NCBI RefSeq assembly: GCF_013122565.1 | Contig: NZ_CP053258.1 | DNA from: Escherichia coli | GTDB lineage: Bacteria > Pseudomonadota > Gammaproteobacteria > Enterobacterales > Enterobacteriaceae | Reading direction: 5' to 3' (one strand) | DNA length: 64,000 bases | In this document: piece by piece, positions 8,461 through 39,554 of the stretch | Layout: every line of letters starts with the position of its first letter | Position numbering within the stretch: the stretch's first letter is position 1 | Made by a program: the position numbers and the translations under genes | Notes under the pieces: model-generated | What the model was told of the DNA's origin: nothing | Database searches by the model: none | What the model saw: the letters and a program-made list of their open reading frames with translations, nothing else

Positions 8461-8556
8461 TGCCACCACCTAACATATATTATTCATTAATGTATGTACG
8501 AAAACTACGCCGGAAAATTAATTAACGAAAGCGGATTTTTGCATGTTGTTTTGTTT

Positions 8557-9666: not shown

Positions 9667-9787
9667 AATTATACGCCATTGGCTTAGAGTAACAATCCTT
9701 TTTGTACGTCATTGACGTACCCTTGAAACCACTAGCTTACTGATAGTGCTCCAGCAAAACCACGTCTCTGCCGGGTTTGTCTTTACA

Positions 9788-9807
9788 TTTGCGAGGCGCT
9801 TTCCAGA
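9788..9807 (-). promoter_or_regulatory. Conserved upstream motif tttgcgaggcgctttccaga, copy 3 (upstream of toxin-antitoxin operon)
   Basis: One-mismatch copy of the yiiE/yiiF upstream 19-mer, about 120 bp upstream of the toxin start. Confidence 0.5.
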
Positions 9808-9819
9808 TTTTTCACGCCC

Positions 9820-21189: not shown

Positions 21190-22092
21190 ATGCAAATCAC
21201 CAACATGCATTGCAGTGGACAGACCGTTTCACTTGCCGCGGGGGATTATCACGCGACCATTGTGACCGTCGGTGCAGGTCTGGCTGAATTAACCTTTCAG
21301 GGCTGTCATTTAGTTATTCCGCATAAGCCCGAAGAGATGCCACTGGCACATCTGGGCAAAGTCCTTATTCCGTGGCCGAACCGGATCGCCAACGGCTGTT
21401 ACCGCTATCAGGGGCAGGATTATCAGTTACCCATTAATGAACATGGTTCAAAAGCCGCTATTCATGGGCTGCTCGCCTGGCGTGACTGGCAAATCAGCGA
21501 ATTAACCGCCACCAGCGTTACCCTGACAGCTTTTCTGCCGCCCAGTTACGGCTATCCGTTTATGCTGGCTTCGCAGGTTGTTTATTCGCTCAATGCACGC
21601 ACGGGTCTTTCCGTTGAGATCGCAAGCCAGAATATTGGTACTGTGACCGCACCCTATGGTGTGGGTATTCATCCTTATTTAACCTGCAACTTAACGCCTG
21701 TTGATGACTATGTATTCCAGCTTCCGGCAAACCAGGTTTATGCCGTCGATGAGCACGCGAATCCGACAACGCTTCACCACGTTGATGAGCTGGATTTAAA
21801 TTTCACGCAGGCGAAAAAAATAGCCGCGACAAAAATCGACCACACCTTTAAAACCGCGAATGATCTGTGGGAAATGACCATTACCCATCCAGAGCAAGCG
21901 CTTTCGGTAAGCCTTTGTTCCGATCAACCCTGGGTGCAGGTTTATAGCGGCGAAAAATTACAGCGTCAGGGACTGGCAGTTGAACCTATGAGTTGCCCAC
22001 CTAACGCCTTTAATTCAGGTCTCGACTTATTATTACTGGAACCAGGGAAAACGCACCGCCTGTTTTTTAATATTTACGGGCAGCACAATTAA
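21190..22092 (+). CDS. yihR: Aldose-1-epimerase family protein
   Basis: 300-aa ORF; start may be a few codons upstream. Confidence 0.8.
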   Translation: MQITNMHCSGQTVSLAAGDYHATIVTVGAGLAELTFQGCHLVIPHKPEEMPLAHLGKVLIPWPNRIANGCYRYQGQDYQLPINEHGSKAAIHGLLAWRDWQISELTATSVTLTAFLPPSYGYPFMLASQVVYSLNARTGLSVEIASQNIGTVTAPYGVGIHPYLTCNLTPVDDYVFQLPANQVYAVDEHANPTTLHHVDELDLNFTQAKKIAATKIDHTFKTANDLWEMTITHPEQALSVSLCSDQPWVQVYSGEKLQRQGLAVEPMSCPPNAFNSGLDLLLLEPGKTHRLFFNIYGQHN

Positions 22093-22152
22093 TTTTATTA
22101 AGAAAAGAACGAGATCATTGTTTAGAGTTGTATTTACGCAACAGGAAATATC

Positions 22153-23028
22153 ATGGACTTTTTTACGTTATTTTCACCGGATGGGGTCATGCTGGAAACA
22201 AACGTGGTATGTATCGTTATCGCGTTAATGTTTCTTTATACCTTTGTGGGGATATGCGCGGGATTTGGCGGTGGTTTAACCACTATGCCGCTCGTCACGT
22301 TAATGCTCCCCGTAAAAATGGCAACTCCGCTCTCGGTGATTGTCGGCACCGCGACCGCCTTGTACGCCACCTGGCTGTCACGTAAAGAAACGGATTGGCG
22401 ATCGGCAATGGTACTGATTATTTTCTCGTTTCTGGGAATACCCGTCGGTTTATATGCGCTGTCATATTTACCCGACCATTTTATGAAAGTGGGCTTAGGC
22501 GGATTCCTTATCCTCTACTCGTTTTATAGTATGTTTATTCCACGCCTGCCGATTTATGACCGCAACTGGATCGCCGCACCTATAGGCGCAGTAGCTGGCG
22601 CATTAGGCGCGGCGTTCTCAACCAACGGACCGCCGATGGTTATCTACGGTATGCTGCGTAACTTAGGCCCGGCGGCATTTCGCGGCACTCTGAACGCTTT
22701 CTTCACCGCAAACAACATCGCGGTGATCGGCGGACTGGCGACCAGCGGAATTTTGACTGTTTCTATCTTTAAACTGGTGCTGTTTTGTATTCCCACCATG
22801 ATCCTCGGTTCACTGGTTGGACAATATGTGCATAAACGCATTTCAGTCAAAGTGTTCCGTGTGATGGTCTTTTTGTTGCTGATTGCCTCCGGTTCTATGT
22901 TGATAAAAGGCGCGCTGGGAATTCCCGCTGCTGCCGCGCTTCTGCCTCCTTTTACCTTGTTAGTTATACTGCAACTGGCATTTGGTAAAAAAGTGGCGGC
23001 AATCCGCCGGGCTGAAGAAAGTAAATAA
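22153..23028 (+). CDS. TauE/SafE-like (sulfite/sulfonate exporter family) membrane protein
   Basis: 291-aa polytopic protein with Gly-rich TM helices; RBS aggaaa upstream; lies between yihR and yihQ, where I recall no gene in K-12. Confidence 0.6.
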   Translation: MDFFTLFSPDGVMLETNVVCIVIALMFLYTFVGICAGFGGGLTTMPLVTLMLPVKMATPLSVIVGTATALYATWLSRKETDWRSAMVLIIFSFLGIPVGLYALSYLPDHFMKVGLGGFLILYSFYSMFIPRLPIYDRNWIAAPIGAVAGALGAAFSTNGPPMVIYGMLRNLGPAAFRGTLNAFFTANNIAVIGGLATSGILTVSIFKLVLFCIPTMILGSLVGQYVHKRISVKVFRVMVFLLLIASGSMLIKGALGIPAAAALLPPFTLLVILQLAFGKKVAAIRRAEESK

Positions 23029-23136
23029 TCACTTATGCGGGTTTTAATTTATACCAGCACCACATTCTTTAATTAATGAAACCTGTAACAACAGGATGGC
23101 ATGAAATATTAGCTTTATACTCTATGGAGATTATTT

Positions 23137-25173
23137 ATGGATACGCCACGCCCACAATTACCAGATTTTCAGTTTCATCAGAATAACGACAGTTTTACCC
23201 TACATTTTCAACAGCGTCTTATTTTAACCCATAGCAAAGATAATCCTTGTTTATGGATTGGTTCAGGTATTGCGGATATCGATATGTTCCGCGGCAATTT
23301 CAGCATTAAAGATAAACTACAGGAGAAAATTGCGCTTACCGACGCCATCGTCAGCCAGTCACCGGATGGTTGGTTAATCCATTTCAGCCGTGGTTCTGAC
23401 ATTAGCGCCACGCTGAATATCTCTGCCGACGATCAGGGCCGTTTATTGCTGGAACTACAAAACGACAACCTTAACCACAACCGTATCTGGCTGCGCCTTG
23501 CCGCTCAACCAGAGGACCATATCTACGGCTGCGGCGAACAGTTTTCCTACTTCGATCTGCGCGGCAAACCGTTCCCGCTATGGACCAGTGAACAAGGCGT
23601 TGGTCGCAACAAACAAACCTATGTCACCTGGCAGGCCGACTGCAAAGAAAATGCGGGCGGCGACTATTACTGGACTTTCTTCCCACAGCCTACGTTTGTC
23701 AGCACGCAGAAGTATTACTGCCATGTTAATAACAGTTGCTACATGAACTTCGACTTTAGCGCCCCGGAATACCATGAACTGGCGCTGTGGGAAGACAAAG
23801 CTACGCTACGTTTTGAATGTGCTGACACATACATCTCCCTGCTGGAAAAATTAACTGCCCTGCTGGGACGCCAGCCAGAACTGCCCGACTGGATTTATGA
23901 CGGGGTAACGTTCGGCATTCAGGGCGGGACGGAAGTGTGCCAGAAGAAACTGGACACCATGCGTAACGCGGGCGTGAAAGTCAACGGCATCTGGGCGCAG
24001 GACTGGTCCGGGATCCGTATGACCTCTTTTGGCAAGCGCGTAATGTGGAACTGGAAGTGGAACAGCGAAAACTACCCGCAACTGGATTCACGCATTAAGC
24101 AGTGGAATCAGGAGGGCGTGCAGTTCCTGGCCTATATCAACCCGTATGTAGCCAGCGATAAAGATCTCTGCGAAGAGGCGGCAAAGCGCGGTTATCTGGC
24201 AAAAGATGCCTCTGGCGGTGACTATCTGGTGGAGTTTGGCGAGTTTTACGGCGGCGTTGTCGATCTCACTAATCCGGAAGCCTACGCCTGGTTCAAGGAA
24301 GTTATCAAAAAGAACATGATTGAACTCGGCTGCGGCGGCTGGATGGCTGACTTCGGCGAGTATCTGCCCACCGACACTTACCTGCATAACGGCGTCAGCG
24401 CGGAAATTATGCATAACGCCTGGCCTGCGCTGTGGGCGAAGTGTAACTACGAAGCCCTTGAAGAAACGGGCAAGCTCGGCGAGATCCTTTTCTTTATGCG
24501 CGCCGGTTCTACCGGTAGCCAGAAATACTCCACCATGATGTGGGCGGGCGACCAGAACGTCGACTGGAGTCTCGACGATGGCCTGGCGTCGGTTGTCCCG
24601 GCGGCGCTGTCGCTGGCAATGACCGGACATGGCCTGCATCACAGCGACATTGGCGGTTACACCACCCTGTTTGAGATGAAGCGCAGCAAAGAGCTGCTGC
24701 TGCGCTGGTGCGATTTCAGCGCCTTCACGCCGATGATGCGCACCCACGAAGGTAACCGTCCGGGCGACAACTGGCAGTTTGACGGCGACGCGGAAACTAT
24801 CGCCCATTTCGCCCGTATGACCACCGTCTTCACCACCCTGAAACCTTACCTGAAAGAGGCCGTCGCGCTGAATGCGAAGTCTGGCCTACCGGTTATGCGC
24901 CCGCTGTTCCTTCATTACGAAGACGATGCGCACACTTACACCCTGAAATATCAGTACCTGTTAGGTCGCGACATTCTGGTCGCTCCGGTGCATGAAGAAG
25001 GCCGTAGCGACTGGACGCTCTATCTACCGGAGGATAACTGGGTCCACGCCTGGACGGGTGAAGCGTTCCGGGGCGGGGAAGTTACCGTTAATGCGCCCAT
25101 CGGCAAGCCGCCGGTCTTTTATCGCGCCGATAGCGAATGGGCGGCACTGTTCGCGTCGTTAAAAAGCATCTAA
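23137..25173 (+). CDS. yihQ: Sulfoquinovosidase (GH31)
   Basis: 678 aa; WAQDW and MWAGDQ glycoside-hydrolase motifs. Confidence 0.85.
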   Translation: MDTPRPQLPDFQFHQNNDSFTLHFQQRLILTHSKDNPCLWIGSGIADIDMFRGNFSIKDKLQEKIALTDAIVSQSPDGWLIHFSRGSDISATLNISADDQGRLLLELQNDNLNHNRIWLRLAAQPEDHIYGCGEQFSYFDLRGKPFPLWTSEQGVGRNKQTYVTWQADCKENAGGDYYWTFFPQPTFVSTQKYYCHVNNSCYMNFDFSAPEYHELALWEDKATLRFECADTYISLLEKLTALLGRQPELPDWIYDGVTFGIQGGTEVCQKKLDTMRNAGVKVNGIWAQDWSGIRMTSFGKRVMWNWKWNSENYPQLDSRIKQWNQEGVQFLAYINPYVASDKDLCEEAAKRGYLAKDASGGDYLVEFGEFYGGVVDLTNPEAYAWFKEVIKKNMIELGCGGWMADFGEYLPTDTYLHNGVSAEIMHNAWPALWAKCNYEALEETGKLGEILFFMRAGSTGSQKYSTMMWAGDQNVDWSLDDGLASVVPAALSLAMTGHGLHHSDIGGYTTLFEMKRSKELLLRWCDFSAFTPMMRTHEGNRPGDNWQFDGDAETIAHFARMTTVFTTLKPYLKEAVALNAKSGLPVMRPLFLHYEDDAHTYTLKYQYLLGRDILVAPVHEEGRSDWTLYLPEDNWVHAWTGEAFRGGEVTVNAPIGKPPVFYRADSEWAALFASLKSI

Positions 25174-25218: not shown

Positions 25219-26604
25219 ATGAGTCACATCACAACGGAAGATCCGGCAACTTTGCGCCTGCCCTTTAAAGAGAAACTCTCTTACGGTATTGGCGACCTGG
25301 CCTCTAACATTTTGCTGGATATCGGCACGCTTTATCTTTTGAAGTTTTATACCGACGTTCTGGGGCTGCCTGGCACCTATGGCGGCATTATCTTTTTGAT
25401 CTCGAAATTCTTTACCGCCTTTACCGATATGGGAACCGGCATCATGTTGGATTCCCGACGCAAGATCGGTCCAAAAGGTAAATTCCGTCCTTTTATTCTG
25501 TATGCGTCATTCCCGGTTACCTTATTGGCAATCGCTAACTTTATCGGCACACCGTTCGATGTCACCGGTAAAACGGTGATGGCCACTATTCTGTTTATGC
25601 TTTACGGACTGTTTTTCAGCATGATGAACTGCTCCTACGGCGCAATGGTTCCCGCCATTACCAAAAACCCCAACGAACGCGCCTCGCTGGCAGCATGGCG
25701 TCAGGGCGGCGCTACGCTGGGCCTGCTGCTGTGCACGGTGGGATTCGTGCCGGTTATGAATCTTATCGAGGGTAATCAGCAACTTGGCTATATCTTCGCC
25801 GCCACGCTGTTTTCACTGTTTGGCCTGCTGTTTATGTGGATCTGCTATTCGGGCGTGAAAGAGCGTTATGTCGAAACCCAACCTACCAATCCGGCGCAAA
25901 AGCCTGGCCTGCTGCAATCTTTCCGCGCAATTGCCGGTAACCGCCCACTGTTCATTCTGTGCATTGCCAACCTCTGCACTTTAGGGGCGTTTAACGTCAA
26001 GCTCGCCATCCAGGTCTATTACACCCAGTACGTACTTAACGATCCCATCCTGTTGTCATATATGGGATTTTTCAGCATGGGCTGTATTTTCATCGGCGTG
26101 TTCCTGATGCCTGGCGCAGTCAGGCGTTTTGGTAAGAAGAAGGTCTATATCGGCGGCCTGCTGATTTGGGTGCTGGGCGATCTGCTCAACTATTTCTTCG
26201 GCGGCGGTTCGGTCAGCTTCGTGGCGTTCTCCTGCCTGGCATTCTTCGGCTCAGCGTTTGTTAACAGCCTGAACTGGGCGCTGGTTTCCGACACCGTCGA
26301 GTACGGCGAGTGGCGTACCGGCGTTCGTTCGGAAGGAACGGTCTACACCGGCTTCACCTTCTTTCGCAAAGTGTCTCAGGCGCTGGCTGGTTTCTTCCCC
26401 GGCTGGATGCTGACGCAAATCGGTTATGTGCCGAACGTGGCGCAGGCTGACCACACCATTGAAGGGTTGCGCCAGCTGATCTTCATCTACCCAAGCGCAC
26501 TGGCGGTAGTCACCATTGTGGCGATGGGCTGCTTCTACAGCCTGAACGAGAAGATGTATGTCCGCATTGTTGAAGAAATAGAAGCCCGTAAACGCACGGC
26601 GTAA
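25219..26604 (+). CDS. yihP: GPH-family sugar/sulfonate:cation symporter
   Basis: 12-TM transporter, paralog of the next gene; 461 aa from MSHITTED. Confidence 0.8.
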   Translation: MSHITTEDPATLRLPFKEKLSYGIGDLASNILLDIGTLYLLKFYTDVLGLPGTYGGIIFLISKFFTAFTDMGTGIMLDSRRKIGPKGKFRPFILYASFPVTLLAIANFIGTPFDVTGKTVMATILFMLYGLFFSMMNCSYGAMVPAITKNPNERASLAAWRQGGATLGLLLCTVGFVPVMNLIEGNQQLGYIFAATLFSLFGLLFMWICYSGVKERYVETQPTNPAQKPGLLQSFRAIAGNRPLFILCIANLCTLGAFNVKLAIQVYYTQYVLNDPILLSYMGFFSMGCIFIGVFLMPGAVRRFGKKKVYIGGLLIWVLGDLLNYFFGGGSVSFVAFSCLAFFGSAFVNSLNWALVSDTVEYGEWRTGVRSEGTVYTGFTFFRKVSQALAGFFPGWMLTQIGYVPNVAQADHTIEGLRQLIFIYPSALAVVTIVAMGCFYSLNEKMYVRIVEEIEARKRTA

Positions 26605-26646
26605 TAATAATAAACAACGCCCTGCGGGGCGTTATAAGGAGTGATT

Positions 26647-28050
26647 ATGTCTGACCATAATCCACTGACATTAAAACTGAATCTGCGGGAAAAAATCGCC
26701 TATGGTATGGGCGACGTCGGTTCGAATTTAATGCTCTGCATCGGTACTCTGTATCTCCTCAAATTTTATACCGATGAATTAGGGATGCCTGCTTACTATG
26801 GCGGGATTATCTTTCTGGTGGCGAAGTTTTTTACCGCGTTTACCGATATGCTCACCGGATTTTTACTCGACTCGCGGAAAAATATTGGGCCTAAAGGCAA
26901 ATTTCGTCCCTTTATTTTATATGCAGCAGTTCCGGCGGCGTTAATTGCAACGCTCCAGTTTATCGCCACCACCTTTTGTTTGCCGGTTAAAACGACGATT
27001 GCCACCGCGCTGTTTATGATGTTTGGACTTTCATACAGTCTGATGAACTGCTCGTATGGTGCGATGATCCCGGCAATTACCAAAAACCCGAATGAGCGCG
27101 CGCAGCTCGCGGCTTACCGCCAGGGTGGTGCAACCATAGGGCTATTGATTTGTACCGTGGCGTTTATTCCGTTGCAGTCGCTTTTTTCTGACTCAACCGT
27201 CGGTTATGCCTGTGCGGCACTTATGTTCTCCATTGGCGGCTTTATTTTTATGATGCTGTGCTACAGAGGCGTCAAAGAGCATTATGTGGACACAGCGCCA
27301 ACCGGACATAAAGCCAGTATTCTCAAATCTTTTTGCGCGATATTTCGTAATCCACCATTGCTGGTTTTATGCATTGCTAACCTGTGTACTCTGGCGGCAT
27401 TTAATATCAAACTGGCGATTCAGGTCTATTACACCCAGTATGTGCTGAATGATATTAATTTATTGTCGTGGATGGGATTCTTCAGTATGGGATGCATCCT
27501 CGTCGGCGTATTACTGGTGCCAGTAACTGTAAAATGTTTTGGTAAAAAACAGGTTTATTTAGCTGGCATGGTGCTATGGGCGGTGGGTGATATACTGAAT
27601 TATTTCTGGGGAAGTAACTCTTTCACTTTCGTCATGTTCTCTTGTGTCGCCTTTTTTGGCACGGCCTTTGTAAACAGCCTGAACTGGGCACTGGTACCAG
27701 ATACCGTAGATTACGGTGAATGGAAAACCGGTATTCGTGCCGAAGGTTCTGTTTATACCGGTTATACCTTCTTTCGTAAAATTTCTGCCGCACTTGCTGG
27801 CTTCTTGCCAGGCATTATGCTGACGCAAATCGGTTATGTTCCCAACATCGCGCAAAGTGATGCGACATTACAGGGTTTGCGTCAGCTCATTTTTATCTGG
27901 CCTTGTGCACTGGCAATTATTGCTGCATTGACGATGGGATTCTTTTACACACTCAATGAAAAACGGTTTGCGTTGATTATTGAGGAAATCAACCAACGCA
28001 AAAATAAAGAGATGGCGACAGAAGAAAAAACGGCTTCCGTAACGTTATAA
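26647..28050 (+). CDS. yihO: GPH-family sulfoquinovose transporter
   Basis: 467 aa from MSDHNPL; paralogous to yihP. Confidence 0.8.
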   Translation: MSDHNPLTLKLNLREKIAYGMGDVGSNLMLCIGTLYLLKFYTDELGMPAYYGGIIFLVAKFFTAFTDMLTGFLLDSRKNIGPKGKFRPFILYAAVPAALIATLQFIATTFCLPVKTTIATALFMMFGLSYSLMNCSYGAMIPAITKNPNERAQLAAYRQGGATIGLLICTVAFIPLQSLFSDSTVGYACAALMFSIGGFIFMMLCYRGVKEHYVDTAPTGHKASILKSFCAIFRNPPLLVLCIANLCTLAAFNIKLAIQVYYTQYVLNDINLLSWMGFFSMGCILVGVLLVPVTVKCFGKKQVYLAGMVLWAVGDILNYFWGSNSFTFVMFSCVAFFGTAFVNSLNWALVPDTVDYGEWKTGIRAEGSVYTGYTFFRKISAALAGFLPGIMLTQIGYVPNIAQSDATLQGLRQLIFIWPCALAIIAALTMGFFYTLNEKRFALIIEEINQRKNKEMATEEKTASVTL

Positions 28051-28116
28051 ATGTCAATAGCCGCTATTTCCATCCTGGTGGGTGGCGGCCTCCCTACGTT
28101 TAAAAATGGACTTATT

Positions 28117-28809
28117 ATGAAAAAGATTAATGCAATAATTTTATTATCTTCTCTGACCTCTGCCTCAGTATTCGCTGGCGCATACGTCGAAAACAGGGAG
28201 GCATATAATCTCGCCTCCGATCAGGGCGAGGTTATGCTACGTGTGGGTTATAACTTCGATATGGGCGCGGGTATTATGTTAACCAATACCTATAACTATC
28301 AGCGAGAAGATGAACTAAAACATGGATATAACGAAATCGAAGGTTGGTATCCTTTATTTAAACCAACCGATAAATTAACCATCCAGCCCGGTGGCTTAAT
28401 TAATGATAAGAGTATCGGTTCGGGTGGTGCAGTTTATCTGGATGTTAACTACAAATTTACTCCGTGGTTTAACCTGACGGTGCGTAATCGTTTTAACCAT
28501 AATAACTACAGCTCAACCGATTTAAACGGTGATCTGGATAATAATGACAGCTACGAGATTGGCAACTACTGGAACTTTATTATTACCGATAAGTTCTCAT
28601 ATACCTTTGAACCGCATTATTTTTATAACATTAATGATTTCAATAGCAGCAATGGTACGAAGCATCACTGGGAAATCACTAACACCTTCCGTTATCGCAT
28701 TAATGAGCACTGGCTGCCCTATATTGAATTGCGCTGGTTAGACCGCAACGTCGAGCCGTACCACCGTGAGCAAAACCAGATTCGTATCGGGACGAAGTAT
28801 TTCTTCTGA
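28117..28809 (+). CDS. ompL: Outer membrane porin OmpL
   Basis: Signal peptide MKKINAIILLSSLTSASVFA and terminal aromatic residue (..GTKYFF). Confidence 0.85.
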   Translation: MKKINAIILLSSLTSASVFAGAYVENREAYNLASDQGEVMLRVGYNFDMGAGIMLTNTYNYQREDELKHGYNEIEGWYPLFKPTDKLTIQPGGLINDKSIGSGGAVYLDVNYKFTPWFNLTVRNRFNHNNYSSTDLNGDLDNNDSYEIGNYWNFIITDKFSYTFEPHYFYNINDFNSSNGTKHHWEITNTFRYRINEHWLPYIELRWLDRNVEPYHREQNQIRIGTKYFF

Positions 28810-28820
28810 TGTAAAAATGT

Positions 28821-28850
28821 AAAAAGCCGCTGATATTTAAGCGGCTTTTT
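28821..28850 (+). terminator. Rho-independent terminator after ompL
   Basis: aaaaagccgctgatatttaagcggcttttt stem-loop with T-run. Confidence 0.8.
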
Positions 28851-28989
28851 ACACAGATATTCACAATATAAATAACTCTCCATAATTATATAACTACGTT
28901 GATTATAAAATATTCCTCGTCCTCTCTATCAAAGCCATTGACTACTCGGTAAGATCTTTTCCACTGCAACACTCACAAGGAATGAGAAA

Positions 28990-29838
28990 ATGGAAAAGAA
29001 ATTTTTTATGGATTGGGATAATGAAATCCCGCAAGAAGAATTTATTAACAATATTTTAGCCGATGAAGACCTACCCAAACTTCGCTCTCTGATTATTGGT
29101 CGTTGGGGGGAGTGCTGGGATGAGGAAAGTTGCCAATCGATAATCGACATGTTTGTTGAACATGCTGAACGCTTCACGCATCTTGAATCCCTGTATGTCG
29201 GCGATATGGAAAGTGATGAGTGTGAGATTTCGTGGATAAAACAAGGGGATTATTCTCGTCTGTATGCTGCGCTGCCGAATCTGAAAAAGCTGACAATTAA
29301 AGGTACTCAGGGCCTGGAACTGGGAGAAATCGCCCACGACAAGCTTGAGCATCTGGAAATTATCTCTGGCGGTACGCCGTGCGACGTGTTCGCTTCATTG
29401 CAAAATTCCCACCTGCCTGCGTTAAAAACACTTATCGTTTATATTGGCGTTGAGAATTATGGTTTTGATGCATCGCTGGATATCGTGATGAAGCTGGCGT
29501 TGAAATCCCTCTTCCCGAGCCTGACGCATCTTGGCCTGGTGAACAGCGAAGAGCAAAACGAAATCGTCCGCCGCGTGCTGGAAAGCGATATTCTGCCACA
29601 ACTGGAAGTGCTGGAACTTTCCTTGGGTACACTCACCGACGAAGGCGCGGAGTCTCTTCTCAAACATGCCGATCGCCTTAGCCATCTGAAACTGCTGGAT
29701 TTGCATCATCATTACCTTACAGAAAAAATGCAGGAAAAATTGCAGAAAACGCTACCGATCGAAGTGGATGTCTCATACAGAAATAAACCGCGTACTTATA
29801 GTGATAGAGTTTATATGACTCCCATGTTTACCGAATAA
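28990..29838 (+). CDS. Acidic cytoplasmic leucine-rich-repeat-like protein
   Basis: 282 aa; repeated LxxLxxLxL segments (LPNLKKLTI, LEHLEII, LPALKTLIV, LTHLGLV, LPQLEVLEL, LSHLKLLDL); RBS aaggaatgag. Confidence 0.5.
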   Translation: MEKKFFMDWDNEIPQEEFINNILADEDLPKLRSLIIGRWGECWDEESCQSIIDMFVEHAERFTHLESLYVGDMESDECEISWIKQGDYSRLYAALPNLKKLTIKGTQGLELGEIAHDKLEHLEIISGGTPCDVFASLQNSHLPALKTLIVYIGVENYGFDASLDIVMKLALKSLFPSLTHLGLVNSEEQNEIVRRVLESDILPQLEVLELSLGTLTDEGAESLLKHADRLSHLKLLDLHHHYLTEKMQEKLQKTLPIEVDVSYRNKPRTYSDRVYMTPMFTE

Positions 29839-29898
29839 AGTGCCTATAACAGGAGATGGCAACATCTCCTGTTATTTATCACAGAAAAGGAATTCTTC

Positions 29899-30885
29899 GT
29901 GATTACGCTAATTTGTCATCCTGAAAGCAAACGCACATTTTATTTTTTCCAGGCCGCGTCACGCTTGCAGGAACATATCAACGTAGTGAGCTATGATCAA
30001 GCACTTACCCTGCCCTTAAATAAAGGCATGGTAAAAATTGATCCCCCCTTACATCAGGAAACAGATATTCGCTTAATTAATACGGTTAGCCAAAACTATA
30101 TTACTTTTTTACAAAAAATGGCTAACCGAAGAGAAATCCGTTTTATTAACTCGCCAGAAGGTATCATTCATCTTCTGGATAAACGCCACTGTAAGCAACG
30201 ATTAATTGAACACGCGATCCCGACACCGCCAATATTAGCGGATGATATCCGTAGCTACGATCAACTGATCGCCTGTATGCGCAGCGAAAAGGTTTATCGC
30301 GTGTTTATTAAGCCGAATTTCGGATCAGGGGCCGCCGGGGTGCTGGCATTGAGTTTACATCCCGGCGATAACCGCCAGGTGCTTTATTGCGCCATCCAGG
30401 TTGCAGGTGACAGGCTGGTGAACAGTAAACATATTATCCGCTATGAAAACAGCGATGATATTACGTTGATTGTGAATGCTATTTTACAACAAGAAAATAT
30501 TATCGAATGCTGGCTGGCAAAAGCCAGAGTGGGCAATAAAAGCTACGATTTACGAATAGTATACGTTAATGGCGAAATCGTCTGGCGGGTTGTCAGAACA
30601 TCATCACAGCCGATCACCAATTTGCATCTACAAAATGAAGCTATCCGTTTTGCCGATCTTAATTTACCCGCAGAAAAAGTTACTGAAATTGACACGCTTT
30701 GTCTCAACGCCATGAAACTCTACCCGGACGTACACATTGCCGGGATTGACGTATTACTCACGCAAAACTTAACCCCCTATATTATCGAAATTAACGGCCA
30801 GGGCGATCTTATTTATCAGGACACCTGCGAACAAAACATAATTTATCAACGCCAGATTCAGGTAATGAGAGAACACCATGTATAA
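29899..30885 (+). CDS. ATP-grasp ligase (RimK-like)
   Basis: GTG start with RBS; KPNFGSGAAGV and ...YIIEINGQGDL resemble ATP-grasp motifs; 8-nt overlap with next ORF. Confidence 0.55.
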   Translation: MITLICHPESKRTFYFFQAASRLQEHINVVSYDQALTLPLNKGMVKIDPPLHQETDIRLINTVSQNYITFLQKMANRREIRFINSPEGIIHLLDKRHCKQRLIEHAIPTPPILADDIRSYDQLIACMRSEKVYRVFIKPNFGSGAAGVLALSLHPGDNRQVLYCAIQVAGDRLVNSKHIIRYENSDDITLIVNAILQQENIIECWLAKARVGNKSYDLRIVYVNGEIVWRVVRTSSQPITNLHLQNEAIRFADLNLPAEKVTEIDTLCLNAMKLYPDVHIAGIDVLLTQNLTPYIIEINGQGDLIYQDTCEQNIIYQRQIQVMREHHV

Positions 30886-31750
30886 CGTAACTGACGAAGT
30901 ACCAGAAAATACCCGCACGGCAATCCATTCCTGCGATGGCGAAATCAATATGAATGATTTGATTGCCAGGGAAGCGAACGTTCTGTTTGTGGTGCTTGAT
31001 TCCCTGCGTTTTGATATTGCGTTTCAGGAACAAGAGGCGGGCAATACGCCGAACATTAACCGCTATGGTCGCTGGATAAAGTGCGAAGCCGCTGGCAATT
31101 TTACCTGGCCTTCGCATCATTCGATGTTTTCTGGTTTTATGCCTAAGCCACTGGAAGCCGCACCAGGTCATTCAATGCTCTTTTTTCCCAAAGATATTGG
31201 CTTAGGGCGTTTAGGACCAAAAAATGCGTTCGCATTCAGTGAAGAGACGTGGATTAAGGGGATGGAAAACAAAGGTTACCGCACTATCTGCGTGGGTGGC
31301 GTCTCCTTTTTTAATAACCGTTCAGGGATGGGAAAAGTGTTCCCGGCGATGTTTAAAGAGAGTTACTGGTATCCTAATTTCTCCTGCACGGTGAAAGAGA
31401 GCATGGATAATCAGCTCACCTTAATTAACAAAAAGGTGAACGCTGAACAGCCGCTGATGATGTATATCAATATCGACACCATTCATTATCCGAATCACTT
31501 TTATATTGAAAATGCCAAACCTGGCGATACGGTAGAAACGCATGCCGCTGCCCTACATTATATTGATGCCAGAATCGATAAACTTTTTGATATCTTTCGG
31601 CAAACCAGGAGGGAGACGTTAGTTATTCTCTGTTCCGATCATGGCACCTGCTACGGGGAAGACGGTAAATATTTCCACAGTTTTAACCATCCGATTGTGA
31701 ATACCGTACCCTATTTTCACTTTGTGTTAGACGGCAAAACCCATGAATAA
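30878..31750 (+). CDS. Alkaline-phosphatase-superfamily metalloenzyme (sulfatase/phosphotransferase-like)
   Basis: N-terminal VLDSLRFD and C-terminal LCSDHGTCYGEDG metal-binding-type motifs. Confidence 0.5.
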   Translation: MYNVTDEVPENTRTAIHSCDGEINMNDLIAREANVLFVVLDSLRFDIAFQEQEAGNTPNINRYGRWIKCEAAGNFTWPSHHSMFSGFMPKPLEAAPGHSMLFFPKDIGLGRLGPKNAFAFSEETWIKGMENKGYRTICVGGVSFFNNRSGMGKVFPAMFKESYWYPNFSCTVKESMDNQLTLINKKVNAEQPLMMYINIDTIHYPNHFYIENAKPGDTVETHAAALHYIDARIDKLFDIFRQTRRETLVILCSDHGTCYGEDGKYFHSFNHPIVNTVPYFHFVLDGKTHE

Positions 31751-32981
31751 TGAATCGATTTATCAGCAATATATGTACAGTTACCCGCATAAGACCGCTT
31801 ATCGGGAATTAAACAATATTGCTTTTGCAGATGTGAAGTCGCGTATTTACGAGCATAAAACACATCTCTATATTCATATGCCTTTTTGCCAGAGCCGCTG
31901 CGGGTTTTGTAATCTTTTTACCTGCACGGGCGCAGACAATGCCTTTATCGACAACTACATAGAGGCGATTATCGTCCAGGCCCAGCAAATGCAACTTGCG
32001 CCTGTAGACTGGGCCAGTTTTACCATTGGCGGCGGTACGCCACTGCTGCTTAATGTCGGGCAACTGTCGCGATTGTTTCGCGGGGTGTTTGACGAATTAC
32101 AGGTCGATGCGCAGATTTTTAAGGCCATTGAAACATCGCCTTCCGATACCTCTGCCGAAAAAGTCGCGTTGTTGCGCCAGCTTGCGGTAAACCGTGTCAG
32201 TATTGGTGTTCAGAGTTTTAACGATCTGGAACTTGCCACATTACACCGCCGCCATAGCACTAAAAATGCCCATCGGGCGCTGGAGCTACTGCGCACGGGT
32301 AATTTCCCGATACTCAATATTGATATTATTTACGGTATTCCCGGTCAAACAGCCGCAAGTTTATTGGCGTCGCTTAATCAGGCATTAGATTATCAACCTG
32401 ACGAACTGTTTCTGTACCCACTGTATAACATGCCTCGCCAGCCGGATATGTATAGCCTCTATATTGAAGCCCGCGATCGCTTATTGCATGAAGGTTATAC
32501 GCAAACGTCAATGCGCCGTTTTGTGCGGGTGAATAATGATTCGGCGGTTGAAAGTTGTGGCTTTGAAAATTCGCTGGCGCTTGGCGCGGGCGGGCGCAGT
32601 TACCTGGGCAATTTACATTACTGCACGCCGTGGTCGCAAAACCAGCCTGCATCGCGACAAATTGTCGCGGATTTTATCGCCCGACAAGATAAAACCCTTA
32701 TTAACCACGGCTATGTGCTTTCACAAGCAGAAATGAAGCGGCGTTTTGTTATCAAGAATCTCTTTTTCTATAAAGGGCTTTCGTTACGTGATTATCAGCG
32801 CCAGTTCTCCTCTGAGGTATTAAGCGATTTTCCCCTGCTGGGCGATTTTATCAAACAAGATTATTGCCACCAGCAGGATAATCGCATTCTGCTCACCGCG
32901 CAGGGTTTGGCGCTTTCGGACCAGCTTGGCCCGCTGTTTATTTCCCCGGAAGTTCGCAGGCTGGAGACGCATAAACGATGA
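31743..32981 (+). CDS. HemN-family radical SAM protein (paralog of coproporphyrinogen oxidase; HemW / class C methyltransferase-like)
   Basis: LYIHMPFCQSRCGFCNLF (CX3CX2C) and FTIGGGTPLL, parallel to LYVHIPFCHKLCYFCGC / LHWGGGTPTYL in the canonical hemN of this window. Confidence 0.7.
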   Translation: MNNESIYQQYMYSYPHKTAYRELNNIAFADVKSRIYEHKTHLYIHMPFCQSRCGFCNLFTCTGADNAFIDNYIEAIIVQAQQMQLAPVDWASFTIGGGTPLLLNVGQLSRLFRGVFDELQVDAQIFKAIETSPSDTSAEKVALLRQLAVNRVSIGVQSFNDLELATLHRRHSTKNAHRALELLRTGNFPILNIDIIYGIPGQTAASLLASLNQALDYQPDELFLYPLYNMPRQPDMYSLYIEARDRLLHEGYTQTSMRRFVRVNNDSAVESCGFENSLALGAGGRSYLGNLHYCTPWSQNQPASRQIVADFIARQDKTLINHGYVLSQAEMKRRFVIKNLFFYKGLSLRDYQRQFSSEVLSDFPLLGDFIKQDYCHQQDNRILLTAQGLALSDQLGPLFISPEVRRLETHKR

Positions 32982-33832
32982 CGCTCAAGCAGATCCAGAC
33001 GCTGATTTATCGCGGCGAGATAAAGTCGTGTAATTATCGCTGTGGCTATTGTCCGTTTCATAAACAAGACCGCAATGATAAGCAGCAGGATGAAGCGGCA
33101 TTATGGCGCATGGTTGAGCATTTACCGGCGCTGGGTTCACCGTTAAATGTGTTGATTACACCCTACGGCGAAGCATTGCGTTATCGGTATTATATGGCGG
33201 CGATGGCGGAAATAAGCCGTTATTCCCATGTCCAGGCGGTGGGTATTCAGACCAACGCCTCGTTTAATTTATCCTCGTTGATAGCGACTTTTCAGCACTC
33301 TCAGGGCGATTTAGCAAAGCTGCGGCTGTGGTGTTCATTTCATCCTTCCCAGGTCAGTAAAGAAGTTTTCCTTAAACAGATACTGGCAATTAAGGACGCG
33401 GGGATTAATTGTTCTGTGGGGGCCGTCGCCAACGTAACCGACTACGACACATTCCAGTGGTTACGCGCGCATCTTCCTTCCGATATCTATTTCTGGCTAA
33501 ACGCCAATGAGCGCGATAAAAGGCCCACCAGCGACGAAAGAAATAGCCAGTTTCAGTTGCTGGACCCGCTTTATCCTTTGGAAACCAGCCTCTGGCCTGC
33601 CAATGTTGCGTTTTGTCTCGGCGGCAAAAAGAGCGTGTTTATGAATGCCGAAGGCGATCTCTTCGCCTGTAATATCAGCAAAATTAAAATCGGCAATTTA
33701 TATCAGCAGCAACTTTCATCTCCAGCCTGTATGGCCAGGCACTGCCACTGTTATCTGGCTTATCATCTGCGTCAGGATATCCCGGCCCTCTCACAATTTG
33801 ATGCTGAACGCTGTTTTCGGATCTTCCCTTAA
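32978..33832 (+). CDS. Radical SAM protein with C-terminal Cys-rich (SPASM/twitch-like) region
   Basis: N-terminal SCNYRCGYCPF (CX3CX2C); C-terminal FACN...PACMARHCHC cluster; ATGA overlap with upstream ORF. Confidence 0.55.
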   Translation: MTLKQIQTLIYRGEIKSCNYRCGYCPFHKQDRNDKQQDEAALWRMVEHLPALGSPLNVLITPYGEALRYRYYMAAMAEISRYSHVQAVGIQTNASFNLSSLIATFQHSQGDLAKLRLWCSFHPSQVSKEVFLKQILAIKDAGINCSVGAVANVTDYDTFQWLRAHLPSDIYFWLNANERDKRPTSDERNSQFQLLDPLYPLETSLWPANVAFCLGGKKSVFMNAEGDLFACNISKIKIGNLYQQQLSSPACMARHCHCYLAYHLRQDIPALSQFDAERCFRIFP

Positions 33833-34530
33833 TGATCTGCCGGTTAATCGCGCTCGATTTAGATGGCACATTGCTGAACAGCAAGAAGATGATTTCCCCT
33901 GCGTCGGTTTCGGCACTGCAAAGCGCACAACAGGCAGGCGTGAAGATTATTCTCGCCACCGGGCGTTCGCACAGCGAAGCCCTGCCTTATTACCAGCAAT
34001 TGCAGTTAACCGGGCCGATGATTTGCTGTAACGGCAGCTATCTTTATCATCCGTATCAGCGGCAAATAGTGAATCCGCAACCGCTTAATATTCAGCAGGT
34101 GGAGAAACTGCGAGCATGGTTTTCACTACACTCACTCCAGCCAATTTTGTATACCCACGATGAGTTAACTTTGCAGATAAGCCTGGTACATCGCAAGGCT
34201 TCGTTATTGCGCCAGGCTGAGGAATTTGCCCGGCAAGAATTATCGCTGGCCTGTAGCTGGTCCTGGCATCATCAACTGGATATTACACAGGCGGGGTGTG
34301 AGAAAGGCAAAAGTCTGGCCTGGTATGCACAGCAGCAAAATATCGCTCTGGATGAAATCATCGCCTTTGGCGATAACGATAATGATGCGGGGATGTTGCA
34401 GATGGTAGGGAAAGGTATTGCGATGGGCAATGGTAGCTTTCTGGCAAAAGCCAGCTCTAACTGCGTTATCGGTCACAACAACACTGACGCGATTGCGGAT
34501 TTTCTTTATGCGCAGGGGGTCAGTTCATGA
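33832..34530 (+). CDS. HAD-superfamily (Cof-like) phosphatase
   Basis: Motif I IALDLDGTLLNS; C-terminal FGDNDNDAGM; start overlaps upstream stop by 1 nt. Confidence 0.7.
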   Translation: MICRLIALDLDGTLLNSKKMISPASVSALQSAQQAGVKIILATGRSHSEALPYYQQLQLTGPMICCNGSYLYHPYQRQIVNPQPLNIQQVEKLRAWFSLHSLQPILYTHDELTLQISLVHRKASLLRQAEEFARQELSLACSWSWHHQLDITQAGCEKGKSLAWYAQQQNIALDEIIAFGDNDNDAGMLQMVGKGIAMGNGSFLAKASSNCVIGHNNTDAIADFLYAQGVSS

Positions 34531-34602
34531 CGCATCTTATCAGGTCTACAAAAGCAAAAAACCTGCCATCGCTGGCAGGTTTTTTATGACTAAAAAACGA
34601 AA

Positions 34603-36426
34603 TTAATCGTCTTTCGGTGCGCGGTTAGCGCGACGACGATCGTTTTCCGTCAGGTGACGTTTACGAATACGGATAGAGGTCGGAGTCACTTCTACCAGTT
34701 CGTCATCATCGATGAACTCCAGAGCTTGTTCCAGAGTCATGCGGATAGGCGGAACCAGAACAACGGCTTCGTCAGTACCGGAAGCACGCATGTTGGTCAG
34801 TTTCTTACCGGTCAGGCAGTTTACAGTCAGGTCGTTAGAGCGGCTATGAATACCGATAATCTGACCTTCGTAAACTTCTGCACCGTGACCGAGGAACAGC
34901 TTACCGCGATCCTGCAGACCGAACAGCGCGAACGCGACCGCTTTACCCTGACCGTTAGAGATCAGTACGCCGTTCTGACGCTGACCCACTTCACCCGGAC
35001 GTACGTCGTCGTAGTGGCTGAAGGTGGAGTACAGCAGACCAGTACCGGAAGTCATGGTCATGAACTCAGAACGGAAGCCAATCAGACCACGGCTTGGGAT
35101 CACGTAGTCGAGACGTACGCGGCCTTTACCGTCTGGATTCATGTTTTTCAGGTCGCCTTTACGTTCGCCCAGCGCCTGCATTACAGAACCCTGATGCTGT
35201 TCTTCAACGTCCAGAGTCACGTTTTCATACGGCTCTTGTTTACGACCGTCGATTTCACGGAAGATAACTTTCGGACGGGATACCGCCAGTTCGAAACCTT
35301 CACGACGCATGTTTTCGATCAGAACAGACAGGTGCAGTTCGCCACGACCAGAAACGCGGAACGCATCGGCGTCTTCGGTTTCTTCTACGCGCAGCGCAAC
35401 GTTGTGTACCAGTTCTTTGTTCAGACGATCCAGGATCTGACGAGACGTTACGAACTTACCTTCTTTACCGCAGAACGGCGAGGTGTTAACGCAGAAGAAC
35501 ATAGAAACGGTCGGCTCATCAACGGAGAGTGCCGGCAGCGCTTCAACGTTTTGCGTGTCGCAAACGGTGTCAGAAATGTTCAGTTCGCCCAGGCCCGTGA
35601 TCGCCACGATATCGCCAGCTTCCGCCAGGTCGGTTTCGATACGTTCCAGACCGAGGTGGCCCAGCACTTTACCGACTTTCGCGTTACGGGTTTTGCCTTC
35701 GCTATCGATGATAGTGACCTGCTGGTTCGGCTTCACTTTACCGCGCTTGATGCGGCCAATGCCGATAACGCCAACATAGCTGTTGTAATCGAGCTGAGAA
35801 ATCTGCATCTGGAACGGACCGTCAAGGTCAACGTCCGGCGCAGGAACGTGATCAACAATCGCCTGATACAGCGGGGTCATGTCTTCAGCCATATCTTCGT
35901 GGTCCAGACCCGCGATACCGTTCAGCGCAGAAGCGTAAACGATCGGGAAGTCCAGCTGCTCGTCGGTCGCGTCGAGGTTAACGAACAGGTCGAATACCTG
36001 ATCCACAACCCAGTCAGGACGCGCGCCAGGGCGGTCAACTTTGTTGATAACAACAATCGGCTTCAGGCCGTAAGCAAACGCTTTTTTGGTTACGAAGCGC
36101 GTTTGCGGCATCGGGCCGTCAAATGCGTCAACCACCAGCAGCACTGAGTCTACCATGGACATTACACGTTCAACTTCACCACCGAAGTCGGCGTGCCCCG
36201 GGGTATCAACGATGTTGATACGGTAATCATTCCATTTGATAGCGGTGTTTTTCGCGAGGATGGTAATCCCACGCTCTTTCTCCAAATCGTTGGAGTCCAT
36301 CACGCGCTCTTGGGTTTCGGCACGAGAGTCGAACGTACCGGATTGTTGGAGCAGCTTGTCTACCAGGGTGGTTTTACCATGGTCTACGTGCGCGATGATG
36401 GCGATATTACGCAATTTTTCGATCAC
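34603..36426 (-). CDS. typA: Ribosome-dependent translational GTPase BipA/TypA
   Basis: 607 aa; G1 [12 protein letters not shown]-like architecture. Confidence 0.9.
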
Positions 36427-39543: not shown

Positions 39544-39554
39544 AGGTGACGTTT

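What the first reader, a model, noticed from the sequence alone, without database searches (positions are those of the whole stretch)
22153..23028. TauE/SafE-like exporter gene inserted inside the sulfoquinovose catabolic cluster
A 291-aa polytopic membrane ORF with its own RBS lies between yihR and yihQ, where I recall K-12 having only an intergenic region. Established knowledge: sulfoglycolysis ends in a C3 sulfonate (DHPS) that must be exported, and TauE/SafE-family proteins export sulfite and sulfonates. Inference: a plausible dedicated product exporter that would make this SQ cluster more complete than the K-12 version.
Basis: partly seen in the sequence, partly recalled or inferred. Interest (0 to 1): 0.45.

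Follow-up and report, generated by a model that had tools for sequence, protein, structure and literature searches.

The report
Sulfonate exporter gene K-12 lost
The ORF is a real, well-conserved TauE/TSUP-family membrane transporter gene inside the sulfoquinovose-degradation cluster, most likely the exporter for the waste sulfonate DHPS; it is ancestral, and about half of E. coli strains, including K-12, have lost it.

Summary
Window 22153-23028 (+) is a 291-aa ORF with an AGGAA ribosome-binding site, lying between yihR and yihQ. It matches Pfam TauE (PF01925, E 4.7e-35). K-12 has an unrelated 198-bp spacer there.

The word "inserted" is not supported. Salmonella and E. whittamii carry the gene in the same slot. 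It has diverged in step with its neighbours, is under strong purifying selection (dN/dS 0.05) and has ordinary GC content. Among 5,426 complete E. coli genomes, 24% carry it (including O157:H7), 49% carry one AT-rich K-12-type spacer allele, and about 26% lack yihR-yihQ. The two alleles are interspersed on flanking-gene trees, so this is an old, recombining polymorphism.

The export role rests on gene context only. Orthologues (72-95% identical) were found only in sulfoglycolysis clusters, in all 13 loci examined. Seven of those are Entner-Doudoroff-type clusters with a YihU-like reductase and one symporter. In Klebsiella the gene occupies the slot of one of the two YihO/YihP-type carriers. 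No sulfite-releasing enzyme lies nearby. The next relatives are at most 38% identical and sit in unrelated contexts.

The most likely role is DHPS export, which is untested. RefSeq already annotates the gene generically. TauE-type exporters are known from other sulfoquinovose clusters, so this is a new member of a known kind.

The parts
16185..16994 (-). csqR (yihW), the DeoR-family repressor of the cluster. These are ORF limits; the RefSeq-type start would give 261 aa.
   Evidence: Pfam HTH_DeoR plus DeoRC. 100% amino-acid identity to K-12 and O157 CsqR.
17004..17906 (-). yihV, sulfofructose kinase
   Evidence: Pfam PfkB. 98-99% identical to the K-12 and O157 proteins.
18068..18964 (+). yihU, sulfolactaldehyde reductase (forms DHPS)
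   Evidence: Pfam NAD_binding_2 and NAD_binding_11. RefSeq name in K-12 and O157.
18988..19866 (+). yihT, sulfofructose-phosphate aldolase
   Evidence: Pfam DeoC.
19882..21123 (+). yihS, sulfoquinovose isomerase
   Evidence: Pfam GlcNAc_2-epim.
21190..22092 (+). yihR, sulfoquinovose mutarotase (aldose-1-epimerase)
   Evidence: Pfam Aldose_epim. It is the most diverged gene between the tauE-plus and tauE-minus alleles.
22143..22147 (+). Shine-Dalgarno-like AGGAA, 5 nt upstream of the tauE ATG
   Evidence: Read directly from the sequence. Orthologues have AAGGA or AGGAG at the same place.
22153..23028 (+). TauE/TSUP-family permease gene (291 aa), the subject of the finding and the proposed DHPS exporter
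   Evidence: Pfam PF01925 E 4.7e-35. dN/dS 0.048. AF2 model with 4+4 helices plus an extra C-terminal helix, pLDDT 95.9. Orthologues lie only in sulfoglycolysis clusters.
23082..23095 (.). Perfect palindrome CCTGTAACAACAGG, about 41 nt upstream of the yihQ ATG. It lies in the ~55 bp next to yihQ that both alleles share. Function unknown.
   Evidence: Conserved in the window, O157, K-12 and E. whittamii but not in Salmonella. Not enriched in the window and absent from the yihV/yihU spacer.
23137..25173 (+). yihQ, sulfoquinovosidase (GH31)
   Evidence: Pfam Glyco_hydro_31 domains.
25219..26604 (+). yihP, GPH/MFS_2 carrier, named in the literature as the putative DHPS exporter
   Evidence: Pfam MFS_2. 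65% identical to YihO. The literature wording is 'most likely' or 'putative'.
26647..28050 (+). yihO, GPH/MFS_2 carrier (sulfoquinovose importer in K-12)
   Evidence: Pfam MFS_2.
28117..28809 (+). ompL, porin
   Evidence: NCBIfam porin OmpL, E 9e-142.

Best explanation
The ORF is a functional secondary transporter of the TSUP (TauE/SafE, PF01925) family and an original component of the enterobacterial sulfoglycolysis gene set. The proposed mechanism is as follows. Sulfoquinovose enters through a YihO/YihP-type symporter. YihS, YihV and YihT convert it to DHAP plus sulfolactaldehyde. YihU reduces sulfolactaldehyde to the dead-end anion 2,3-dihydroxypropane-1-sulfonate (DHPS). This 9-helix permease then lets DHPS leave the cytoplasm, probably driven by the membrane potential or proton gradient as for other small anion exporters.

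It is probably transcribed with yihR and yihQ, since the gaps are 60 and 108 bp and no terminator-like site on the + strand was predicted in either gap. The gene was present at this position in the common ancestor of Escherichia and Salmonella. A single replacement allele (a 198-bp AT-rich spacer) later arose and now sits in about half of E. coli, including K-12, so both states segregate and recombine within the species.

Shown here: the gene is real, belongs to the family, is conserved, sits in these contexts, and has this distribution and polarity. Inferred: the substrate (DHPS), the direction of transport (export), the energy coupling and the co-transcription.
For: Family and fold:
- Pfam TauE at 121.8 bits.
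- The AF2 model (pLDDT 95.9, pTM 0.91) has two repeats of four long helices, each with a short helix after the first, plus an extra C-terminal helix at 259-289.

Selection and polarity:
- dN/dS is 0.048 against O157. dN against Salmonella is 0.085, within the 0.077-0.100 range of the other yih genes except yihS (0.020) and yihR (0.208).
- Salmonella (two loci) and E. whittamii have the gene in the same yihR|yihQ slot.
- tauE nucleotide identity is 96.6-98.3% within E. coli, 94.5-96.2% to E. whittamii and about 74% to Salmonella.
- GC content is 49.2%, against 50% for the window.

Context specificity:
- All 13 orthologue loci examined are sulfoglycolysis clusters.
- Four have tauE between yihR and yihQ.
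- Two have it after yihQ. In Klebsiella quasipneumoniae only one YihO/P-type carrier remains and tauE takes the other slot.
- Seven are Entner-Doudoroff-type clusters: LacI, SSF symporter, dehydratase, aldolase, epimerase, lactonase, a YihU-like reductase, an SDR and tauE as the last gene. None has an aldehyde dehydrogenase, and a single importer-type carrier is present.
- tauE subclades follow context.
- An exhaustive search of 1.84 billion representatives found one full-length 50%-identity cluster for this subfamily, then a gap to at most 38% identity. The two nearest distant relatives checked are in unrelated neighbourhoods.

Other points:
- No sulfite-releasing enzyme lies within about 10 kb in any locus.
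- YihO and YihP are 65% identical paralogues of a sugar-symporter family, and the DHPS-export role of YihP is only 'most likely' or 'putative' in the literature.
- TauE-type proteins are the predicted sulfolactate or DHPS exporters in other sulfoquinovose pathways: SftE, SqwE and Arthrobacter.
Against: - No transport, expression or mutant data exist for this protein in anything I could search.
- K-12 and about half of E. coli grow on sulfoquinovose and excrete DHPS without the gene, so it is dispensable or redundant there.
- The family name comes partly from an uptake permease (TsaS), so direction cannot be read from homology.
- The Klebsiella single carrier is only slightly closer to YihO (73%) than to YihP (68.5%), so 'TauE replaces YihP' is suggestive and not clean.
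- The Enterobacter kobei sulfo-EMP cluster has YihP and a further MFS_2 carrier (cut off by the end of the locus) without its own tauE, although a tauE sits 1.4 kb away in the adjacent ED cluster.
- Polarity rests on two outgroups. E. albertii, E. fergusonii and other Escherichia species could not be sampled.
Confidence: 0.6

Rival explanations
1. It is a sulfite exporter, as the database name says. It would remove sulfite released when a sulfonate is desulfonated.
For: The Pfam family name and the RefSeq product name are 'sulfite exporter TauE/SafE family protein'.
Against: The sulfo-EMP pathway and these reductase-type ED clusters end in an intact C3 sulfonate. No sulfolyase, Xsc, SuyAB or glycyl-radical DHPS lyase is encoded in or beside any of the 13 loci. 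The name is a family label and not an assay. The protein is at most 38% identical to any relative outside sulfoglycolysis clusters.
Confidence: 0.05
2. It is an importer of a sulfonated substrate, such as sulfoquinovose, sulfoquinovosyl-glycerol or another sulfonate, and not an exporter.
For: TSUP is named after a 4-toluenesulfonate uptake permease, so direction is not fixed by family. The gene sits next to yihQ, the glycosidase that acts on imported glycosides.
Against: Every cluster already has a sugar-type symporter (YihO/YihP or SSF) suited to sulfoquinovose or its glycosides. Apart from tauE, no cluster has any other candidate for product efflux. A roughly 290-aa 8-9-helix carrier is small for a sugar glycoside. 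K-12 takes up sulfoquinovose without it, and its yihO mutant fails to grow.
Confidence: 0.1
3. It is an accessory anion valve for something other than DHPS, for example sulfolactate, sulfolactaldehyde or an unrelated anion. DHPS would still leave through YihP or an unknown route.
For: About half of E. coli has lost the gene without losing the pathway. The literature assigns export to YihP. TauE-type proteins in other organisms are linked to sulfolactate.
Against: Strong purifying selection and strict linkage to clusters carrying a sulfolactaldehyde reductase and no sulfolactaldehyde dehydrogenase point to DHPS as the product these cells make. The YihP assignment has no experimental support in the papers read.
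Confidence: 0.2
4. One reading: the gene is a recent insertion into a K-12-like cluster.
For: K-12 lacks it, and the yih locus is known to be structurally labile in E. coli. Its position differs between genera.
Against: Salmonella and E. whittamii have it in the same slot with co-divergence. No compositional anomaly, repeats or mobile-element genes flank it. The K-12 spacer is not an empty site: 142 bp of it are unrelated 27.5%-GC sequence present as one allele in 2,634 genomes. Allelic diversity of tauE within E. coli reaches 3.4%.
Confidence: 0.08

Closest known systems
SftE and SqwE, the TauE-type predicted sulfolactate/DHPS/isethionate exporters of the sulfo-transaldolase and sulfo-transketolase pathways in Firmicutes (Bacillus aryabhattai, Eubacterium rectale, Clostridium)
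   Same: They share the Pfam family. They are encoded inside a sulfoquinovose catabolic cluster next to a sulfolactaldehyde reductase or dehydrogenase. They are proposed to expel the short-chain sulfonate end product.
   Different: The pathways (sulfo-EMP and reductase-type sulfo-ED) and the phylum differ. The enterobacterial/Vibrio proteins form their own tight clade with no relative above 38% identity outside it. This clade carries an extra C-terminal helix. None of these exporters, including SftE, has been assayed as far as I could find.
TauE of Cupriavidus necator, SafE, and TsaS of Comamonas, the founding members of the TSUP family (TC 2.A.102; from my own knowledge)
   Same: They share the PF01925 domain, a 4+4 helix architecture, and handling of sulfite or small organosulfonates.
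   Different: Those genes sit in taurine, sulfoacetate or toluenesulfonate pathways, with desulfonation or uptake. Here no desulfonating enzyme is nearby.
YihP of E. coli K-12, the textbook putative DHPS exporter
   Same: It is encoded in the same cluster and is proposed for the same step.
   Different: YihP is a 461-aa GPH/MFS_2 sugar-symporter-type protein, 65% identical to the importer YihO. It is unrelated in fold to the TSUP protein. It is present in both tauE-plus and tauE-minus alleles.
The long and short yih cassettes of E. coli (Kaznadzey et al. 2025, PMC12608037)
   Same: The locus is the same, and so is the theme of structural variants scattered across the species tree by recombination.
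   Different: That study describes only ompL-yihOPQRSTUVW and yihTUVW. It does not mention the tauE-containing long form, which here accounts for 24% of complete genomes.

Membership tests
TSUP / TauE-SafE family (Pfam PF01925) | Significant match to the family profile above the curated threshold over most of the domain | tested here: met
   121.8 bits against a cut-off of 32.6, E 4.7e-35, residues 23-248 on profile positions 2-235 of 237.
TSUP / TauE-SafE family (Pfam PF01925) | Polytopic membrane protein built from two four-helix repeats (8 TMS) | tested here: met
   The AF2 model (pLDDT 95.9) has helices 16-36, 54-75, 82-105 and 108-128, then 138-155, 173-198, 203-227 and 232-255. A short helix follows the first helix of each half. 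There is one extra helix at 259-289. The repeat is not significant at sequence level (BLAST of the two halves, E 0.25).
TSUP / TauE-SafE family (Pfam PF01925) | Transports sulfite or a small organosulfonate | not testable with these tools
   This needs transport assays. No solved structure of any family member was found by sequence or by fold.
Sulfoglycolysis end-product exporters (TauE-type genes in sulfoquinovose clusters, e.g. SftE) | Encoded within a sulfoquinovose catabolic cluster, on the same strand as the catabolic genes | tested here: met
   In the window it lies between yihR and yihQ. The same holds for all 13 orthologue loci in 11 other taxa.
Sulfoglycolysis end-product exporters (TauE-type genes in sulfoquinovose clusters, e.g. 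SftE) | Co-occurs with the enzyme that makes the excreted C3 sulfonate (sulfolactaldehyde reductase or dehydrogenase) | tested here: met
   YihU is present in every EMP-type locus. A YihU-like NAD_binding_2 reductase (30% identical to YihU) is present in every ED-type locus. No aldehyde dehydrogenase is present.
Sulfoglycolysis end-product exporters (TauE-type genes in sulfoquinovose clusters, e.g. SftE) | Induced by sulfoquinovose, and required for or able to carry out DHPS or sulfolactate efflux | not testable with these tools
   No expression or mutant data were found for this gene in the searchable literature.
Sulfite exporter in the strict sense (TauE of taurine or sulfoacetaldehyde pathways) | Linked to a sulfite-releasing desulfonation enzyme (Xsc, SuyAB, CuyA, HpsG and similar) | tested here: not met
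   No such Pfam family occurs among the called genes within 8-10 kb in any locus.

The most novel reading that the evidence does not exclude
This TSUP protein, and not YihP, may be the authentic ancestral DHPS exporter of enterobacterial sulfoglycolysis. It would be a portable export module shared by the sulfo-EMP clusters and a reductase-type (DHPS-forming) sulfo-ED cluster. YihO and YihP, at 65% identity, would both be importers, for example of sulfoquinovose and its glycerol glycoside. K-12, the model organism in which the pathway was defined, would then be a natural exporter-loss variant that releases DHPS by an unidentified route, and the textbook transporter assignment would be wrong.
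Probability: 0.3. Interest if true: 0.55.

Novelty: new member of a known kind. Interest (0 to 1): 0.35.

Why it matters
[quoted passage not shown] E. coli is a primary degrader in the gut, and the DHPS it excretes feeds sulfide-producing bacteria. The export step has never been shown experimentally; it is assigned to YihP by default.

A dedicated TSUP gene is present in Salmonella, O157:H7 and a quarter of E. coli. The same gene appears in the ED-type clusters of Hafnia, Kluyvera, Edwardsiella and Vibrio. This gives a concrete, easily tested candidate for the exporter.

It also shows that the K-12 cluster used as the reference is a reduced version. The natural presence/absence polymorphism supplies near-isogenic comparisons for DHPS release and cross-feeding. 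Otherwise the finding is an ordinary annotated transporter of a known family in an expected context.

Tried and rejected
- **Remnants of tauE in the K-12 spacer.** MAFFT and short-word blastn find only the last ~55 bp shared, so this is not a simple deletion scar. The 142-bp unique part is single-copy in E. coli and matches nothing in the other loci.
- **Palindrome as a CsqR site.** The palindrome upstream of yihQ has no second copy in the yihV/yihU spacer and is not enriched, so the idea was dropped.
- **Promoter and terminator scan.** The counts were close to those from shuffled sequence (17 vs 15.8 ± 4.5 promoter-like, 23 vs 15.8 ± 4.4 terminator-like). No + strand terminator-like site fell in the gaps flanking tauE. 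This is only weak support for co-transcription.
- **Genome-collection scan.** The scan with the single protein returned only 5 loci because the peptide patterns are exact. Contexts were widened with exact-protein look-ups instead.
- **Solved structures.** There is no sequence hit and no Foldseek hit at E <= 0.001 (best were BacA/UppP and nucleotide-sugar transporters). No template exists to infer a binding site.
- **NCBIfam.** No model matches.
- **Internal repeat by sequence.** Not significant.
- **Literature.** The Salmonella locus tag I guessed from memory (STM4020) gave no papers. Denger et al. 2014 is not held, so I cannot exclude that its supplementary figures show this gene.
- **Recent foreign insertion.** Rejected on co-divergence, composition and outgroup position.

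Full report
**1. What is in the sequence**

Window 22153-23028 (+) is an ATG-initiated ORF of 291 codons. AGGAA lies at 22143-22147, five bases before the start. The translation is hydrophobic throughout. It matches Pfam TauE (PF01925, 'sulfite exporter TauE/SafE') at 121.8 bits against a curated cut-off of 32.6 (E 4.7e-35), covering residues 23-248.

The surrounding genes are the complete sulfoquinovose (sulfo-EMP) cluster:
- csqR and yihV lie on the minus strand.
- yihU, yihT, yihS, yihR, the ORF, yihQ, yihP, yihO and ompL lie on the plus strand.

The gaps are 60 bp after yihR and 108 bp before yihQ. A simple consensus scan found no terminator-like site on the + strand in either gap. Its counts were close to those from shuffled sequence, so this is only weak support for co-transcription. 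The window is E. coli-like: 97.5% DNA identity to O157:H7 across the cluster, against 93% to E. whittamii.

**2. Is the gene real and functional?**

Yes, on four grounds:
- The exact protein occurs on more than 1,000 public contigs.
- Against the O157:H7 allele, dN/dS is 0.048 (dS 0.127). This lies within the range of the neighbouring yih genes, from about 0 for csqR to 0.116 for yihR.
- The N-terminus MDFFTLF(S/T)PDG is conserved out to Vibrio, which fixes the start codon.
- An AlphaFold2 model built on a 101-sequence alignment is very confident (mean pLDDT 95.9, pTM 0.91).

The model shows two similar halves. Each half has a long helix, a short helix, then three long helices (16-128 and 138-255). 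An additional C-terminal helix spans 259-289.

The generic relatives are about 240 aa long and align only to residues ~17-252. The N-terminal ~15 residues and the ninth helix are therefore particular to this subfamily. No solved structure of the family was found by sequence or by fold (no Foldseek hit at E <= 0.001).

**3. Comparison with K-12 and other E. coli**

K-12 DH1 has a 198-bp non-coding spacer between yihR and yihQ. It is not an empty site. Only the ~55 bp next to yihQ are shared with the tauE-bearing version; these include the palindrome CCTGTAA(C/T)AACAGG and the ribosome-binding site. The other 142 bp are unrelated sequence of 27.5% GC.

| State, among 5,426 complete E. coli genomes | Genomes | Share |
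|---|---|---|
| tauE region present (1,287 near full length), annotated 'sulfite exporter TauE/SafE family protein'; includes O157:H7 and many ETEC | 1,296 | 24% |
| K-12-type 142-bp sequence, single copy | 2,634 | 49% |
| No yihR-yihQ at all; probably the 'short cassette' of Kaznadzey et al. 2025 | about 1,420 | 26% |

That 2025 paper is devoted to yih cassette variation and does not mention the tauE-bearing form.

**4. Insertion or loss?**

The evidence favours an ancestral gene that the K-12-type allele lost:
- Salmonella enterica has the gene in the same yihR|yihQ slot, in a cluster at the same chromosomal site (yihX/yihY on one side and typA/glnA on the other). The protein is listed in about 24,000 index blocks of the contig collection.
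- E. whittamii also has it in the same slot.
- Divergence tracks the neighbours. dN against Salmonella is 0.085, versus 0.077-0.100 for the other yih genes apart from yihS (0.020) and yihR (0.208).
- tauE nucleotide identity is 96.6-98.3% among E. coli alleles, 94.5-96.2% to E. whittamii and about 74% to Salmonella.
- GC content (49.2%) equals the window average.

I built trees of yihR and yihQ from six tauE-plus and six tauE-minus E. coli strains, with E. whittamii as outgroup. The two states are interspersed. For example, a tauE-minus strain has a yihR 99.2% identical to that of a tauE-plus strain. The tauE-minus spacer is one allele of 197-204 bp found on backgrounds up to 8% apart.

The most economical reading is as follows. 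The gene was present in the Escherichia-Salmonella ancestor. A single deletion or replacement allele arose within Escherichia. Both alleles have since been shuffled by homologous recombination. The limitation is that only two outgroups could be sampled.

**5. What it most likely does**

The functional argument rests on context alone; nothing was assayed. Orthologues are 72-95% identical across Enterobacterales and Vibrio. I examined 13 loci from 11 other taxa, and every one is a sulfoglycolysis cluster.

| Arrangement | Taxa |
|---|---|
| (a) yihR-tauE-yihQ | E. coli O157, E. whittamii, Salmonella (two loci) |
| (b) yihQ-tauE-yihP-yihO | Enterobacteriaceae bacterium RIT691 |
| (b) yihQ-tauE-yihO | Klebsiella quasipneumoniae; only one YihO/P-type carrier remains and tauE occupies the other slot |
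| (c) tauE as last gene of an Entner-Doudoroff-type cluster | Hafnia (two loci), Leminorella, Edwardsiella, Vibrio owensii, Kluyvera, Enterobacter kobei, Mixta |

The type (c) cluster consists of a LacI regulator, an SSF symporter, a sulfogluconate-dehydratase-like gene, an HpcH aldolase, an epimerase, a lactonase, a YihU-like reductase and an SDR dehydrogenase, followed by tauE.

Three features of the ED-type clusters matter:
- They contain a reductase of the YihU family (30% identical) and no aldehyde dehydrogenase, so their predicted product is DHPS, as in sulfo-EMP.
- They have one importer-type carrier, and tauE is the only other transporter.
- In Kluyvera the ED cluster sits at the same chromosomal site as the E. 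coli EMP cluster. In Enterobacter kobei an ED cluster with tauE lies beside an EMP cluster that lacks both yihR and tauE.

The tauE tree splits into three subclades that match these three contexts.

An exhaustive HMMER search of 1.84 billion representatives found a single full-length 50%-identity cluster for this subfamily. Below it there is a gap to at most 38% identity. The two nearest distant relatives I looked up lie in unrelated neighbourhoods.

None of the loci encodes a sulfite-releasing enzyme, which argues against the literal 'sulfite exporter' label.

The common denominator is therefore a pathway that makes DHPS inside the cell and needs to dispose of it. Export of DHPS is the best-supported role, at about 0.6 confidence. 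Direction, substrate and energy coupling are all inferred.

**6. Relation to the accepted model**

Papers on the K-12 pathway assign DHPS export to YihP, but only as 'most likely' or 'putative'. In the mutant list quoted in one of those papers, yihO, yihS, yihV, yihT and yihU mutants fail to grow and yihP is not listed.

YihO and YihP are both GPH/MFS_2 sugar-symporter-type proteins and are 65% identical to each other. That is an odd pairing for a sugar importer and a C3-sulfonate exporter.

TauE-type proteins are the predicted sulfonate exporters in the sulfo-transaldolase (SftE), sulfo-transketolase (SqwE) and Arthrobacter sulfo-EMP clusters. The present gene fits that pattern.

It remains possible that the TSUP protein is the original exporter and that K-12 manages without it by another route. 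I put this at about 0.3. One paper's figure legend notes genes 'without predicted function' in the clusters it depicts (which include S. flexneri) and a frameshifted yihP in S. flexneri. This would be worth checking against that hypothesis.

**7. Novelty and verdict**

The gene is already annotated generically in RefSeq, and its family is a known component of sulfoquinovose clusters in other phyla. It is therefore a new member of a known kind, not a new kind of system.

What appears to be unreported in the literature I could search:
- Its presence in the E. coli and Salmonella clusters.
- Its status as an old presence/absence polymorphism.
- Its sharing between the EMP-type and reductase-type ED clusters.

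Interest is moderate-low (0.35). The finding offers a cheap, direct test of an unverified step in a well-studied pathway, and it corrects the view that K-12 holds the full cluster. Nothing about the gene itself is surprising.

Noticed in passing
window 28990-34530: Between ompL and typA the window carries six + strand genes. Five are STM4015, STM4014 (ATP-grasp), STM4013/SEN3800 hydrolase (sulfatase-like), STM4012 radical SAM and STM4011 radical SAM family genes. The sixth is a 232-aa Cof-type HAD phosphatase that matches its profiles in two pieces. K-12 has yihN and yihM downstream of ompL at this point. Only 157 of 5,426 complete E. coli genomes cover at least 80% of window 28000-40000, at about 96% identity. 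One of the two Salmonella loci (L004) has the same island. Function unknown.
   Followed up: partly
L005/L006 (Hafnia), L009, L010, L011, L012, L013, L015: about 1000-10900 in each: A conserved Entner-Doudoroff-type sulfoglycolysis cluster occurs in Enterobacterales and Vibrio. It has a YihU-like reductase (30% identical to YihU) in place of the sulfolactaldehyde dehydrogenase of the Pseudomonas putida pathway, so it should yield DHPS and not sulfolactate. In Kluyvera it occupies the same chromosomal site (yihX ... typA) as the sulfo-EMP cluster of E. coli. In Enterobacter kobei the ED and EMP clusters lie side by side.
   Followed up: partly
L001 (K-12 DH1) 5864-6000, aligned with window 21124-21189: K-12 and some other strains carry an extra GC-rich repeat of about 74 bp in the yihS-yihR spacer (GGGTGCGGGTTTTCCCCTCTCCCTAACCCTCTCCCCAAAGGGGCGAGGGGAC...). 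From memory it looks like a boxC-type element. It is absent from the window, O157, E. whittamii and Salmonella, and it varies independently of tauE presence.
   Followed up: partly
window 25219-28050 (yihP, yihO): YihP and YihO are 65% identical paralogues of the GPH/MFS_2 symporter family. That is unexpectedly close for proteins assigned opposite jobs (DHPS export versus sulfoquinovose import). Klebsiella quasipneumoniae keeps only one of them (73% to YihO, 68.5% to YihP).
   Followed up: partly
window 21190-25173 (yihR, yihQ), compared with L001, L002 and L020-L028: Nucleotide diversity at yihR and yihQ within E. coli is high: pairwise identity falls to 91% for yihR and 93% for yihQ. The gene trees are mutually incongruent, which indicates a recombination hot spot at this locus.
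   Followed up: partly
window 23082-23095: A perfect 14-bp palindrome, CCTGTAACAACAGG, lies about 41 nt upstream of yihQ. It is kept in both tauE-plus and tauE-minus Escherichia alleles but not in Salmonella. It is a possible regulatory site or small hairpin. It is not found in the yihV/yihU spacer, which the literature names as the CsqR-binding region.
   Followed up: partly
protein cluster of the window's TauE: The 90%-identity protein cluster holding this TauE also lists 299-300-aa members named aldose-1-epimerase (YihR). This is probably a clustering or gene-calling artefact from the adjacent gene.
   Followed up: no
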